Source of the DNA: a virus | Lineage: Duplodnaviria; Caudoviricetes | Virus record (IMG/VR): IMGVR_UViG_3300044627_003892 | Strand: one strand, 5' to 3' | Length of the DNA stretch: 64,000 nt | Shown: in pieces, positions 8,183 through 63,655 of the stretch | Numbering within the stretch: position 1 is the stretch's first letter | How the letters are laid out: every line of letters starts with the position of its first letter | Made by a program: the position numbers and the translations under genes | The notes under the pieces: model-generated | What the model was told of the DNA's origin: nothing | Database searches by the model: none | The model's input: only the letters and a program-made list of their open reading frames with translations

Positions 8183-8989
8183 ATGGAAAATATTTTAGAC
8201 TTAAGTATCATCTTACCAATTAAGACAAATTTAGTTAAGGACTTTGTGGAACTTTTTACTAAATCAATTGAATCAATCCAATTACAATCAATTAAACCTA
8301 AAGAACTGATAATTGTTCATTCAAGTGAAGAAAAATTAATTGAGTTTTTAGAATCTTTTGATTTTGGGGATTTAAATGTTAAAAAAATTAAATTTGAAAG
8401 TGAACCTAACTTTTCATCTCAGGTTAATTTAGGTATTGAAAGTTCATCATCTAAATGGGTAAGTATTTTAGAATTTGATGATGAATATGCTAAAATTTGG
8501 TTTAAAAACGTTAAAAAATATATTGAAGTTTATCCTGAAATAGATGCGTTTTTACCAATTGTTGTTGATGTTGATAATAAAACAGTATTTGCAGGATTTA
8601 CTAATGAAGCAACATTCGCCGCAAATTTCAGTCAAGAAATGGGTTATTTAACTAACGAAACGTTATTAAATTATCAAAATTTTCAAACATCGGGTATGGT
8701 ATTTAAAAAATCAATTATTGAGGATTTTGGTGGTTTTAAGGCTAGTTTTAAATTAACATTCCCATATGAATTTTTATTAAGAATGACTTATAATTCTGTA
8801 AAAATTATGACTATACCAAAAATTGGTTACAAACATATGAACCTTAGAGAAGGGTCAATATTTTGGGAATATAAAAATGGTGAAAATAAAGTGAGTGACA
8901 GTGAAGTTCAGTTTTGGGTATCTTCTGCAAAAAAAGAATATTTCTTTAATACCGATAGAAACATAAAATATACTCAAGAAAATGCTTGA
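8183..8989 (+). CDS. GT2 family glycosyltransferase
   Basis: LSIILP N-terminus, ELIIV, NLGIESSSSKWVSILEFDD (GT-A DxD region), YEFLLRM. Confidence 0.75.
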   Translation: MENILDLSIILPIKTNLVKDFVELFTKSIESIQLQSIKPKELIIVHSSEEKLIEFLESFDFGDLNVKKIKFESEPNFSSQVNLGIESSSSKWVSILEFDDEYAKIWFKNVKKYIEVYPEIDAFLPIVVDVDNKTVFAGFTNEATFAANFSQEMGYLTNETLLNYQNFQTSGMVFKKSIIEDFGGFKASFKLTFPYEFLLRMTYNSVKIMTIPKIGYKHMNLREGSIFWEYKNGENKVSDSEVQFWVSSAKKEYFFNTDRNIKYTQENA

Positions 8990-9726
8990 TGACTATAAGT
9001 TCAAGCACAATACAGATTGAGGTTACTAAAAAAAAGAAACCAAGTTCTGAAAATTATTTTGACATAAGAGAAGAAAATGCGGTTAGAATGTTTTTAACCG
9101 CATCTACTTTTGATGAAAAAAACAAAATATATAACGATTATTTGAGACATCCTTTAGATAAAATGATATCCTCAATTATTCGAAGATATAAATTGTATAG
9201 AAAAGATATGGATTTTATTGAAATTCATACTGATACACATTCTTTTTTGATGACAAAAATTGATAAGTTTAGTCCGTCAAAAGAAAAGAAAGCGTATTCT
9301 TATTTTGGTACCATTTGTAAAAATTATCTGATGGGACAAATTCTGAAAGACCAAAAAGAAATGAATCGAAAAGTGTCTTATGAAGATATATCTAGTGATT
9401 TAGAAAATAGGTCAGAAATGGTTTATTACTTAGATATTGAACCAGAGGTTGAGGTAAATATTATACCAATTTTAAAATCATATATTAAAGACGTTTTAGA
9501 AGAAAATGATTTAAATGATAATGAAATAAAATTGGGTATTGCTTTAATTGAGGTACTTGACAATTATGAAACAATATTTCCAGCAACTGATAACAATAAG
9601 TTCAATAAAAATGTAATTCTTTTATCTTTAAGAGAAATGACTAATCTTTCAACTAAAGAAATAAGAGCTTCCATGAAAAAATATAAAAAAATATATTTAG
9701 GTCTTATAGAAATCAAACCAGATTAA
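8986..9726 (+). CDS. gp55: gp55-like late RNA polymerase sigma factor
   Basis: IDKFSPSKEKKAYSYFGTICKNYL resembles sigma region 2 of T4-type late sigmas (KFDP..K.AFSY...I..N); sits upstream of morphogenesis genes. Confidence 0.6.
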   Translation: MMTISSSTIQIEVTKKKKPSSENYFDIREENAVRMFLTASTFDEKNKIYNDYLRHPLDKMISSIIRRYKLYRKDMDFIEIHTDTHSFLMTKIDKFSPSKEKKAYSYFGTICKNYLMGQILKDQKEMNRKVSYEDISSDLENRSEMVYYLDIEPEVEVNIIPILKSYIKDVLEENDLNDNEIKLGIALIEVLDNYETIFPATDNNKFNKNVILLSLREMTNLSTKEIRASMKKYKKIYLGLIEIKPD

Positions 9727-9742
9727 ATTTTTTTTTAAAAAC

Positions 9743-9750
9743 TATTTATT
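9743..9750 (+). promoter_or_regulatory. Putative late promoter TATTTATT, 3 nt before ATG 9754
   Basis: One of about 30 copies in sense orientation just upstream of unit starts. Confidence 0.6.
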
Positions 9751-9753
9751 GGT

Positions 9754-10116
9754 ATGACAAAACCCAAAAAAAAACAAATTAATTTTACTAAAGACTCAAT
9801 TCTTGTTTTAATGCAAGAAATTTACAATGAGTTAGTAGAACAACGCTCAACGGCTATTAGAATTCAAAATAAAATGGTTGCCATGATGAAAGAACCTGAA
9901 GACATGACTCTAATTGGACCTGTTATTGAAAAACAACAAAAAATAATAAATGATTGTGTTGAGAAAAAATTACAACTTTCAAAGTTACAATCAGGTATTT
10001 GGGAAAAACAAAGTTCAAAAGAAGAATCATTTGATATTTCAAATATGGATGATGATGTTTTGCAAGGTTTATTAGATAAAGACATAAATTCTGATAATCA
10101 AAAATTTAGTTTATAA
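9754..10116 (+). CDS. Hypothetical coiled-coil protein
   Basis: 120-aa ORF with late motif, coupled to the next gene. Confidence 0.8.
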   Translation: MTKPKKKQINFTKDSILVLMQEIYNELVEQRSTAIRIQNKMVAMMKEPEDMTLIGPVIEKQQKIINDCVEKKLQLSKLQSGIWEKQSSKEESFDISNMDDDVLQGLLDKDINSDNQKFSL

Positions 10117-62899: not shown

Positions 62900-63055
62900 T
62901 TACTTGTTTGACCAATTAAAGTTCAATACAGTAAAAGAAACTTTTTTTGCAGACCAATCCAATTCAATTGAAAGAATTATAAATGCTAAGACTTTAACAG
63001 TGATATTGATTTCATCAATTTCCTGTAATTTTAACCAAAGGTTGTTAAATTTCAT
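62900..63055 (-). CDS. Small hypothetical protein (51 aa, not in ORF track)
   Basis: MKFNNLWLKLQEIDEINITVKVLAFIILSIELDWSAKKVSFTVLNFNWSNK; late motif at 63076-63083. Confidence 0.55.
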   Translation of the reverse strand: MKFNNLWLKLQEIDEINITVKVLAFIILSIELDWSAKKVSFTVLNFNWSNK

Positions 63056-63086
63056 AATAATAAGTTTTTATACTATATAAATATAG

Positions 63087-63185
63087 TTAACTTCCACAAT
63101 AATCATCACATTCATCTAACAATTCACCATCGTCATAAACTTCTTGGTTGTAATAGTCTTCGTCAGGGAAATTGTTTAGTGTCAT
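63087..63185 (-). CDS. Small acidic peptide (32 aa, not in ORF track)
   Basis: MTLNNFPDEDYYNQEVYDDGELLDECDDYCGS; TATATTTG at 63206-63213. Confidence 0.5.
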   Translation of the reverse strand: MTLNNFPDEDYYNQEVYDDGELLDECDDYCGS

Positions 63186-63239
63186 ATTGTTTTTATTTTA
63201 GATTACAAATATAGTGAAAAAATTTAATTATTAGGTTTT

Positions 63240-63587
63240 TTACCAATCAATTCCAGGACCAAATTTCCTTTCATCAATAATATCGTTTATATATAATTCA
63301 ATATTGGGTAACAAATCTTCTATTCTATATTGAATTTCCGCCCTGATATTATCAAAATCATCTCTTAACTGAGTTCTGTAAATATTAATGAGAACTTTTA
63401 TCTTACCTGACATTACAACATCAACAACCTCAATCTTATCAACAGATTCTAATTCGTGCAATTCATCCATTTCACCCATTCCCCATTCTTCAGATTCTTC
63501 CCTTAAACTATCTAATTTAGAATTTATTAATCCTTGAATTAAATTTTTTGTTTTTTCTAATTGTTTTTGGTCTATAATGTACTTCAT
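63240..63587 (-). CDS. Hypothetical late protein
   Basis: 115 aa; late motif 4 nt upstream. Confidence 0.75.
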   Translation of the reverse strand: MKYIIDQKQLEKTKNLIQGLINSKLDSLREESEEWGMGEMDELHELESVDKIEVVDVVMSGKIKVLINIYRTQLRDDFDNIRAEIQYRIEDLLPNIELYINDIIDERKFGPGIDW

Positions 63588-63655
63588 ATATTATAAATAG
63601 TAAAAAACATATAAAAAATATTTTATAATAATTTTGTGTGGTAAATAAAATGTAT

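What the first reader, a model, noticed from the sequence alone, without database searches (positions are those of the whole stretch)
8986..63599. Late promoter TATTTAT(A/T): the reverse complement of the T4 late promoter, paired with a gp55-like sigma
Seen: TATTTATN occurs on the sense strand just upstream of about 30 unit starts. Plus strand: 9743, 13797, 16708, 22990, 38344, 39777, 52374, 56497. Minus strand: 17747, 21438, 22493, 23940, 25813, 29063, 33169, 33952, 34226, 38318, 41205, 43877, 46374, 49631, 50983, 55835, 57525, 59200, 59965, 61619, 63076, 63592. These include portal, TerL, protease and scaffold, while overlap-coupled internal genes checked lack it. Established: T4 gp55 reads TATAAATA on the sense strand. 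Inference: the sigma at 8986-9726 recognises a different, inverted-looking -10 element.
Basis: partly seen in the sequence, partly recalled or inferred. Interest (0 to 1): 0.7.

Follow-up and report, generated by a model that had tools for sequence, protein, structure and literature searches.

The report
Phage promoter box TATTTAT and its sigma
A giant lake phage related to T4 marks about 34 of its gene blocks with one short DNA box, TATTTAT, which is almost certainly a phage-specific promoter, probably read by the phage's own T4-gp55-like sigma factor. The box differs from the T4 late box at only its two middle letters and is not an inversion of it.

Summary
All 30 listed sites exist. Sense-strand TATTTAT lies within 45 nt upstream of 33 of 80 protein genes and of a tmRNA gene (4.9 expected, at most 13 in 5000 shuffles). 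Its density is 13.9 per kb in non-coding DNA and 0.44 per kb in coding DNA. It precedes 30 of 53 unit starts but only 1 of 26 overlap-coupled genes.

It behaves as a promoter, not a translation signal:
- It precedes an RNA gene.
- It follows terminators.
- It faces outward at 12 of 13 divergent junctions.
- Its distance to the portal start codon varies between relatives.
- A conserved AAA follows 11-13 nt after its first T, where the ATG sits in about a third of sites, which implies leaderless mRNAs.

ORF 8989-9726 is a real sigma. It has a region-2 fold (Z 10.8 to T4 gp55), and gene 55 is the only T4 match to its family profile. It also has an extra C-terminal domain that gp55 lacks.

The box and this sigma family occur together in a Flavobacterium phage and a Microcystis phage that lack any other detectable sigma.

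"Inverted" is misleading. Read in the same orientation, the box matches TATAAATA at 6 of 8 positions.

The pairing of box and sigma, and the late timing, are inferred. No RNA data could be laid. This scan has flagged the same motif in many other genomes. I found no paper describing it.

The parts
8989..9726 (+). Phage sigma factor (245 aa): gp55-like region-2 domain (about residues 22-146) plus a helical C-terminal domain (about 158-242). It is the last gene of a motif-free + strand operon.
   Evidence: 52 of 70 family members hit Pfam Sigma70_r2. The family profile matches SigA at 6e-4 and T4 gp55 at 0.054, colinear. AF2 pLDDT 89.7. VIA Z 10.8 to 7d7c_F. Gene 55 is the only T4 genome hit, E 5e-4.
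9743..9750 (+). Box cTATTTATt, 11 nt before the ATG of 9754-10116; first box, 17 nt after the sigma stop codon
13797..13804 (+). Box, 19 nt before 13816-15309
16708..16715 (+). Box, 35 nt before 16743-16988 (lies inside the upstream gene's end)
17747..17754 (-). Box, 26 nt before 16985-17728; divergent junction
21438..21445 (-). Box, 26 nt before 19989-21419 (gp22 position, upstream of the capsid gene 18067-19959); follows the terminator at 21514-21489
22493..22500 (-). Box, 22 nt before the head protease 21759-22478
22990..22997 (+). Box, 44 nt before ribosomal protein bS21 23034-23219
23940..23947 (-). Box, 23 nt before 23214-23924
25813..25820 (-). Box, 16 nt before the portal gene 23948-25804; kept at 16-37 nt in relatives
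27335..27342 (-). Box inside the end of terL, 36 nt before 25843-27306
29063..29070 (-). Box, 12 nt before TerL 27313-29058; follows a hairpin plus T-run
33169..33176 (-). Box, 21 nt before 32970-33155
33952..33959 (-). Box, 12 nt before 33186-33947
34226..34233 (-). Box, 23 nt before 33968-34210; the divergent partner (ClpB/C-like gene) has a host-type box
38318..38325 (-). Box, 21 nt before 37225-38304
38344..38351 (+). Box, 35 nt before the 5' end of the tmRNA gene
   Evidence: same layout in relative G001
38379..38761 (+). Phage tmRNA gene, a non-coding target of the box, followed by a terminator hairpin
   Evidence: ARAGORN; Rfam RF00023, 126 bits, E 7e-49
39777..39788 (.). Palindrome TATTTATAAATA. 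It gives a box to 39791-40558 (+, 14 nt) and to 38791-39762 (-, 26 nt).
41205..41212 (-). Box, 40 nt before 40555-41172; sits just after the tRNA-Arg gene and its terminator
43877..43884 (-). Box, 12 nt before 42364-43872
46374..46381 (-). Box, 11 nt before 43890-46370
49631..49638 (-). Box, 13 nt before 49374-49625; divergent junction
50983..50990 (-). Box, 23 nt before 50500-50967; divergent junction
52374..52385 (.). Palindrome TATTTATAAATA filling a 15-nt gap between divergent genes 51770-52372 (-, 13 nt) and 52388-53011 (+, 14 nt)
54115..54126 (.). Palindrome; the minus box is 21 nt before 53875-54105; the plus box has no gene within 45 nt
55835..55842 (-). Box, 14 nt before 55445-55828
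56497..56504 (+). Box, 11 nt before 56508-57206
57525..57532 (-). Box, 12 nt before 57203-57520
59200..59207 (-). Box, 11 nt before the PPK2 / cell-wall hydrolase gene 57535-59196; follows a hairpin
59965..59972 (-). Box, 23 nt before 59515-59949
61619..61626 (-). Box, 15 nt before 61030-61611
63076..63083 (-). Box, 28 nt before the small ORF 62900-63055
63592..63599 (-). Box, 12 nt before 63240-63587
16278..16308 (+). Contrast class: a host-type Bacteroidota promoter (TTTG, about 19 nt, TATGTTTG) before the motif-less gene 16328-16732
41343..41350 (-). Contrast class: host-type box TATATTTG just upstream of tRNA-Arg 41259-41333
   Evidence: same in G001

Best explanation
(A)TATTTAT(A/T) is the -10-like element of a phage-specific promoter class. 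Like T4 late promoters it has no -35 partner and works in either orientation. Host core RNA polymerase carrying the phage sigma of ORF 8989-9726 binds the box on the non-template strand and starts at an A 11-13 nt downstream of the first T.

Where the ATG sits at that spot (about a third of the sites) the mRNA is leaderless. Elsewhere a short A-rich leader of 5-25 nt follows, as suits a Bacteroidota host that does not use Shine-Dalgarno sites.

The class drives head, packaging, tail and lysis-type genes, bS21 and a tmRNA. A second class of units carries host-type TTTG / TAnnTTTG promoters and is presumably early.

Shown: the motif, its position, strand, context and conservation; the sigma fold; the co-occurrence of box and sigma family. 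Inferred: that this sigma reads the box, the start site, and late timing.
For: 1. Enrichment and strand: 33 of 80 genes plus the tmRNA, against 4.9 expected. Density is 32-fold higher in non-coding DNA than in coding DNA. In 80 related portal loci 336 of 1055 genes carry it, against 41.5 expected. In a 242-kb relative it is 65 of 272 against 12.7.

2. Promoter, not translation signal. The box sits 35 nt before a tmRNA gene, here and in the relative. It follows terminators. It faces outward at 12 of 13 divergent junctions, including a 15-nt gap filled by the palindrome. Its distance to the portal ATG varies from 16 to 37 nt among orthologues while the box is kept. In Microcystis phage Mel-JY01 it lies about 40 nt upstream, with a Shine-Dalgarno site in between.

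3. Start-site signal. In sites with long leaders, A fills positions +11 to +13 from the first T: 38, 37 and 38 of 43 in G001; 11, 12 and 13 of 15 in the window; 22, 20 and 17 of 25 in phage immuto. The minimum box-to-ATG distance is 11 and the main peak is 11-14. The host sigma-A box occupies -12 to -5 (PMC9723704). Host-type boxes in the relative also sit 12 nt before the ATG in 6 of 14 cases.

4. No conserved upstream column, that is, no -35, as in T4 (PMC2988020).

5. Sigma. See the parts list. gp55 pocket residues L54, R57, F86 and Y97 align with the family's I63, R66, F94 and Y105.

6. Pairing. Phages immuto and Mel-JY01 have this sigma family, no Pfam-detectable other sigma and no phage RNA polymerase. 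Both show TATTTATA enrichment (21 against 2.8; 12 against 2.7) and no TATAAATA enrichment. The same script on T4 gives the reverse (TATAAATA 21 against 2.8).
Against: A close relative encodes a second, canonical sigma with regions 1.2, 2 and 4. That sigma could read the box in this lineage.

In that relative, the 23-kb operon that ends in the sigma gene itself begins with a TATTTAT (and the sequence). The class may therefore not be purely late, and how the sigma is first made is open.

The sigma has an extra domain of uncertain, possibly sigma-4-like, nature, yet no -35 element is seen.

The capsid gene has no box of its own.

A start at +11 to +13 places the T4-style geometry (start 13 nt from the first T) at the edge for the 9 sites with distance 11-12.
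Confidence: 0.68

Rival explanations
1. The box is a promoter but is read by something other than ORF 8989-9726. Candidates are the canonical phage sigma seen in the 242-kb relative, or host sigma-A remodelled by a phage factor, as in T4 middle transcription.
For: The relative G001 has a 266-aa sigma with regions 1.2, 2 and 4. The box shares T1, A2, T5 and T7 with the host box TAnnTTTG and sits in the same place. The operon holding the gp55-like sigma starts with a box in G001.
Against: Phages immuto and Mel-JY01 show the box without any Pfam-detectable second sigma. Their hosts belong to different phyla, so host sigma-A specificity would differ. A is invariant at box position 6, where the host box has a conserved T. 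No -33/-35 element is present, although a region-4 sigma would be expected to need one.
Confidence: 0.17
2. The box acts on RNA. It would be an endonuclease processing site in polycistronic transcripts, or a ribosome or bS21 recruitment signal close to start codons.
For: It lies very close to start codons (11-28 nt in 30 of 34 sites). The phage encodes bS21. The host phylum lacks Shine-Dalgarno pairing (PMC6847099 abstract).
Against: It precedes a tmRNA gene. It stands at divergent junctions and right after terminators, where no upstream transcript on that strand is expected. Its spacing to the ATG varies from 11 to 44 nt and differs between orthologues. In Mel-JY01 a normal Shine-Dalgarno site lies between the box and the ATG.
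Confidence: 0.05
3. The box is a chance product of AT-rich intergenic DNA.
For: The window is 30% GC, and the whole-window count is not significant (46 against 35.5).
Against: Shuffles of the same upstream windows never exceed 13, against 33 observed. The box shows strand bias, 32-fold non-coding enrichment and invariant positions. It is conserved in hundreds of related loci. The method recovers the T4 box as a control.
Confidence: 0.01

Closest known systems
Phage T4 late transcription: TATAAATA promoters read by gp55, with gp33 and the gp45 sliding clamp (PMC2988020; PMC7892883; PDB 7D7C)
   Same: The phage has a T4-like head and packaging module (Gp23, Gp20 and T4-type TerL). The promoter is a single 8-bp AT-rich -10-like box without a -35, used in both orientations before structural genes. 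The box is identical to T4's at positions 1-3 and 6-8, including the two adenines that gp55 buries in deep pockets. The sigma has a region-2 fold that aligns with gp55 (Z 10.8, 118 residues), and four of seven pocket residues are conserved.
   Different: The two central bases are TT, not AA; one of them is the -9 base of gp55's shallow pocket, whose residue H95 aligns with Y103 here. The sigma is 245 aa, not 185, and has a folded C-terminal domain. No gp45 or gp33 homologue was detectable by sequence. The start codon often sits at the predicted start site (leaderless), whereas T4 late mRNAs have Shine-Dalgarno leaders (my own knowledge). The sigma gene lies at the end of a sugar / glycosyltransferase operon.
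Bacteroidota housekeeping promoters: -33 TTTG and -7 TAnnTTTG read by sigma-A (PMC9723704)
   Same: The box has the same place relative to the start (-12 to -5) and shares T1, A2, T5 and T7. Genuine host-type promoters occur in the same window before other genes and before the tRNA.
   Different: The box has A at position 6 and A/T at position 8, where the host box has T and G. It has no -33 element. It is found with the same sigma family in a cyanobacterial phage.
ECF-type and other two-domain sigma factors (sigma-2 plus sigma-4), e.g. E. coli sigma-E (1OR7)
   Same: The size and the two-domain helical layout are similar. The whole model aligns to sigma-E over 157 of 164 residues, with domains placed differently.
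   Different: The C-terminal domain on its own gives only Z of about 5 to sigma-4 domains, which is not above unrelated folds. There is no Pfam Sigma70_r4 hit, and no -35 element in the promoters.

Membership tests
T4 gp55 late sigma family | Sigma region-2 homology domain that docks on the beta' clamp helices and binds the non-template -10 strand | tested here: met
   52 of 70 family members hit Pfam Sigma70_r2. The profile aligns colinearly with gp55 residues 49-151. The model gives Z 10.8, rmsd 5.7 and 118 aligned residues to 7d7c_F, tied with other sigmas. Gene 55 is the only hit of the family profile in the T4 genome (E 5e-4). Fold only; binding was not tested.
T4 gp55 late sigma family | Conserved residues of the -12, -9 and -8 base pockets (N13, L54, R57, F86, H95, Y97, T99; PMC7892883) | tested here: inconclusive
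   L54, R57, F86 and Y97 align with I63, R66, F94 and Y105, of which I63 and Y105 are at least 90% conserved in the family. H95 aligns with Y103 and T99 with G107. N13 is not aligned. Several of these residues are general sigma-70 region-2 features.
T4 gp55 late sigma family | Single-domain protein of about 185 aa without sigma-3 or sigma-4; the sigma-4 role is taken by the separate gp33 | tested here: not met
   The protein is 245 aa with a confidently folded extra domain of four or five helices at residues 158-242. The nature of that domain is unresolved.
T4 gp55 late sigma family | [quoted passage not shown] | not testable with these tools
   Some family members end in a short hydrophobic motif ([IL]-D-x-G-[LFY]-[LI]); this protein has IYLGLI. 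That is suggestive only.
T4-type late promoter | Box TATAAATA at -13 to -6 | tested here: not met
   The box is TATTTAT(A/T), and T is invariant at positions 4 and 5 in 34 of 34 sites. TATAAATA is not enriched beyond what palindromes give.
T4-type late promoter | Architecture: one -10-like box, no -35 element, either orientation, before late (virion) genes | tested here: met
   No conserved column lies upstream of the box. Both strands are used. It stands before the portal, TerL and protease genes and the tail sheath gene in the relative. Timing was not tested.
Bacteroidota sigma-A promoter (TTTG / TAnnTTTG) | TTTG at box positions 5-8 and a -33 TTTG | tested here: not met
   Position 6 is A in all sites. 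No -33 element is present. True host-type promoters form a separate set: 5 of 23 motif-less unit starts carry one, against 0 of 30 motif-bearing ones.
Sigma-70 family (Pfam Sigma70_r2 / Sigma70_r4) | Matches to region 2 and region 4 models | tested here: inconclusive
   Region 2 matches at family level, but the window's own protein does not reach E 0.01. Region 4 is not among the families matched.

The most novel reading that the evidence does not exclude
A very large, unnamed clade of phage sigma factors (more than 1000 clusters at 50% identity in metagenomes) may be an unsplit relative of the T4 gp55 + gp33 pair. In it a gp55-like region-2 domain would be fused to a flap-binding, sigma-4-like domain. 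It would read its own box, TATTTAT-N4-AAA, across phages of Bacteroidota and cyanobacteria. In the Bacteroidota phages it would launch mostly leaderless late mRNAs, possibly translated with help from the phage's own bS21.
Probability: 0.3. Interest if true: 0.7.

Novelty: new variant of a known kind. Interest (0 to 1): 0.55.

Why it matters
**For annotation.** The box gives a simple, testable rule for finding transcription units in a huge and mostly uncultured group of T4-related freshwater phages.

**For transcription biology.** It links a sigma family that databases mostly label 'hypothetical' to a DNA target. It also offers a natural specificity variant of the gp55 system. Two central bases change while the deep-pocket adenines are kept, which could show how region 2 reads the -10 strand.

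**For translation.** The box geometry predicts that about a third of these mRNAs are leaderless. Only about 5% are leaderless in a Flavobacterium host (PMC9723704).

**For testing.** A cultured system exists in which all of this can be checked: Flavobacterium phage immuto.

Tried and rejected
- **RNA evidence.** The look-up of sequencing runs found only lake metatranscriptome contigs holding at most 8% of the sampled words. I therefore have no RNA evidence, and I draw no conclusion on habitat.
- **Direct searches with the window's sigma.** It has no Pfam, PHROG or PDB sequence hit on its own. Only the family profile and the fold show what it is.
- **Foldseek on the full model.** Only weak E-values (at least 0.04), although the top 50 are nearly all sigma factors or sigma-containing complexes.
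- **C-terminal domain alone.** Foldseek gave no match. The wide VIA search put sigma-4 domains at Z 4.3-5.2 among unrelated folds of equal score. The profile-versus-PDB search found nothing relevant. The domain stays unresolved.
- **gp45 sliding clamp.** Pfam PF09116 and PF02916 and the T4 gp45 protein found nothing in G001, immuto or Mel-JY01. This is an empty result with no positive control, so it is not evidence of absence. gp33 was not searched for; I judged it too small and fast-evolving.
- **Phage RNA polymerases.** PF00940 and PF00562 found nothing. Very divergent polymerases of the phiKZ type could be missed.
- **E. coli-type -35/-10 promoters.** They are not enriched (93 against 103).
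- **Host-type TAnnTTTG enrichment in the window.** It is weak on its own (5 against 2.0). The class is clearer in the 242-kb relative.
- **Internal host-type promoter for the sigma gene.** One composite match lies at 8363, inside the GT2 gene. It is not conserved in position in the relative and may be chance.
- **Whole genome.** No whole genome is held for this window, so the second sigma could not be confirmed in this genome itself.
- **Literature.** Three searches for the motif or related terms found no description of it in phages. No paper on Mel-JY01 was found.
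Full report
**What the window is.** It is 30% GC DNA from a distant T4-like myophage. It encodes a Gp23-type capsid protein (18067-19959, -), a Gp20-type portal (23948-25804, -), a T4-type large terminase (27313-29058, -) and a head protease (21759-22478, -). The nearest isolates are Flavobacterium phage immuto, Microcystis phage Mel-JY01 and Rhodothermus phage RM378. The sigma ORF recurs on contigs of up to about 300 kb. 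No whole genome is held for the window. I therefore used three other genomes alongside it: a 242-kb IMG/VR relative (G001, 79-95% nucleotide identity over shared parts) and the complete immuto and Mel-JY01 genomes. T4 served as a control.

I first corrected a few gene models: the sigma starts at ATG 8989, one gene starts at 56508, another spans 38791-39762, and I added bS21 and the tmRNA.
- 33 of 80 protein genes and the tmRNA then have a sense-strand box within 45 nt upstream. Shuffles of the same windows give 4.9 (maximum 13 in 5000).
- Non-coding DNA holds 13.9 sites per kb and coding DNA 0.44 per kb. Only three non-coding sites are not sense-upstream of a gene.
- The box precedes 30 of 53 unit starts but 1 of 26 overlap-coupled genes.
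- The consensus is (A)TATTTAT(A/T). The seven core positions are invariant by selection. Position -1 is A in 23 of 31 sites, and nothing is conserved further upstream.
- The plain window-wide count is not significant. The signal lies in position and strand.

**It is conserved.**
- In 80 loci around related portal genes, 336 of 1055 genes carry the box, against 41.5 expected.
- In G001 the figure is 65 of 272 against 12.7, with 7.3 sites per kb non-coding and 0.42 per kb coding.
- Upstream of the portal gene the box is kept while its flanks and its distance to the ATG (16-37 nt) vary.

**It is a promoter, not an RNA-level signal.** Five lines of evidence point the same way.
- The site at 38344 precedes no protein gene. 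It precedes a tmRNA gene (38379-38761; ARAGORN and Rfam at 126 bits). The box lies 35 nt before the mature 5' end and a terminator follows the gene. G001 has the same layout.
- Boxes follow intrinsic terminators, for example at 21514-21489, after the tRNA at 41259-41333, and before terL and the PPK2 gene.
- The gene table shows 13 divergent junctions, and 12 have an outward-facing box. Three junctions carry the palindrome TATTTATAAATA. One of these fills a 15-nt gap between two start codons (52374-52385).
- In long-leader sites, the three positions +11 to +13 from the first T are almost always A: 38, 37 and 38 of 43 in G001; 11, 12 and 13 of 15 here; 22, 20 and 17 of 25 in immuto. Neighbouring positions are about 55% A. 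That is what an initiating-purine preference looks like.
- In the short class, the A of the ATG sits in exactly this place. The minimum box-to-ATG distance is 11, and 16 of 34 sites fall at 11-16.

In Flavobacterium psychrophilum the sigma-A box TAnnTTTG spans -12 to -5, and 5.5% of mRNAs are leaderless (PMC9723704). In T4 the box spans -13 to -6 (PMC2988020). The geometry here therefore fits a -10-type element and predicts many leaderless mRNAs. In Mel-JY01, whose host uses Shine-Dalgarno sites, the same box lies about 40 nt upstream with a GGAG-type site in between. The box is therefore not itself a ribosome signal.

**A second promoter class is present.** Several motif-less units carry host-type Bacteroidota promoters (TTTG, 19-20 nt, TAnnTTTG). 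Examples are before 16328, the ClpB/C-like gene at 34254, 49678, 63638 and the tRNA-Arg. In G001, TATATTTG(T) is the top word before motif-less genes, and in 6 of 14 cases it sits 12 nt before the ATG. This points to a Bacteroidota host and to an early/late split. Timing itself was not measured.

**The sigma.**
- ORF 8989-9726 has no direct Pfam, PHROG or PDB hit. It belongs to a very large family: 1086 clusters at 50% identity.
- 52 of 70 aligned members hit Pfam Sigma70_r2.
- The family profile matches SigA region 2 (E 6e-4) and T4 gp55 (E 0.054, residues 49-151, colinear). In the whole T4 genome it hits only gene 55 (E 5e-4).
- The AlphaFold model (pLDDT 89.7) aligns to gp55 in 7D7C with Z 10.8 over 118 residues. 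That is level with other sigma factors, which also cover the C-terminal part.
- T4 gp55 buries A-12 and A-8 in deep pockets and A-9 in a shallow one (PMC7892883). Pocket residues L54, R57, F86 and Y97 align with I63, R66, F94 and Y105 here. H95 (the -9 pocket) aligns with Y103 and T99 with G107.
- The protein also has a well-folded helical domain at 158-242 that gp55 lacks. Sigma-4 domains appear among its structural matches, but only at Z of about 5, which is no better than unrelated folds.

**'Inverted' is the wrong picture.** TATAAATA and TATTTATA are reverse complements only because both have the frame TAT..ATA. Read in the same direction they agree at six of eight positions and differ in the central pair. 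The two deep-pocket adenines are kept. The base that changes at -9 is the one whose pocket residue also differs. Recognition of a T4 box on the other strand would point transcription away from the genes, the tmRNA and the terminators.

**Does this sigma read the box?** This is inferred.
- In favour: immuto and Mel-JY01 each have a member of this sigma family. Neither has any other Pfam-detectable sigma or a phage RNA polymerase.
- In favour: both show the box enriched and the T4 box not enriched (TATTTATA 21 against 2.8 and 12 against 2.7). The same script on T4 gives TATAAATA 21 against 2.8 and no TATTTAT excess.
- In favour: here and in immuto, the first box follows directly after the sigma gene.
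- Against: G001 has a second, canonical sigma.
- Against: the long operon that ends in the gp55-like sigma starts with a box in G001 (with the sequence). So the class may include non-late genes, and the first source of the sigma is unknown.

**Prior notes and novelty.** This scan has flagged the same motif with a gp55-like sigma in many other genomes: 151 notes in at least 78 genomes. One follow-up on a 166-kb Bacteroidota phage reached the same reading. Other notes on this genome mention two promoter classes and leaderless mRNAs. I treated these as leads and tested them here. Three paper searches for the motif or related terms found no description of it in phages. I class it as a new variant of the T4 late-transcription scheme.

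Noticed in passing
window 38379-38761 (+): Phage-encoded tmRNA (tag peptide AKLSTLGLIRTEEVTVA) with a TATTTATA box 35 nt upstream and a terminator downstream. The same arrangement occurs in the 242-kb relative.
   Followed up: partly
window 41259-41333 (-): tRNA-Arg(TCT) behind a host-type TATATTTG box. It is followed by a terminator and then a TATTTAT box for the next gene, a compact early-then-late arrangement.
   Followed up: partly
window 23034-23219 (+): Ribosomal protein bS21 (Pfam PF01165, E 3e-10), set antisense within the head module, with a box 44 nt upstream.
   Followed up: partly
window 34254-36362 (+): ClpB/ClpC-like double AAA+ ATPase behind a host-type TACATTTG box, divergent from a box-bearing gene.
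   Followed up: no
window 57535-59196 (-): One protein combines a polyphosphate kinase 2 domain with a cell-wall hydrolase domain, behind a box 11 nt from the ATG.
   Followed up: no
L001 1516-8906 (Flavobacterium phage immuto): About 17 small genes each sit behind a nearly identical 26-nt element, TATATTTAGGTATCAATAATTAAAAC. It looks like an early promoter with a host-type -7 box.
   Followed up: no
L099 1078-1878 (-) = G001 about 51.2-52.0 kb: A second, canonical phage sigma (266 aa; Pfam regions 1.2, 2 and 4) in the close relative. I could not confirm whether the window's own genome has it.
   Followed up: partly
L093 9309-10814 (+) = G001 149309-150814: A 501-aa protein with a complete Fe/Mn superoxide dismutase domain, behind a box 12 nt from the ATG.
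   Followed up: no
window 16319-16325 (-): An orphan box in the gap before 16328. It points antisense into 15826-16269 and may be an antisense promoter or chance.
   Followed up: no
Sigma family C-termini (alignment A1): Many members end in a short hydrophobic motif such as IDDGLI or LDEGLL; this protein has IYLGLI. It recalls the clamp-binding tails of T4 gp55 and gp33.
   Followed up: no
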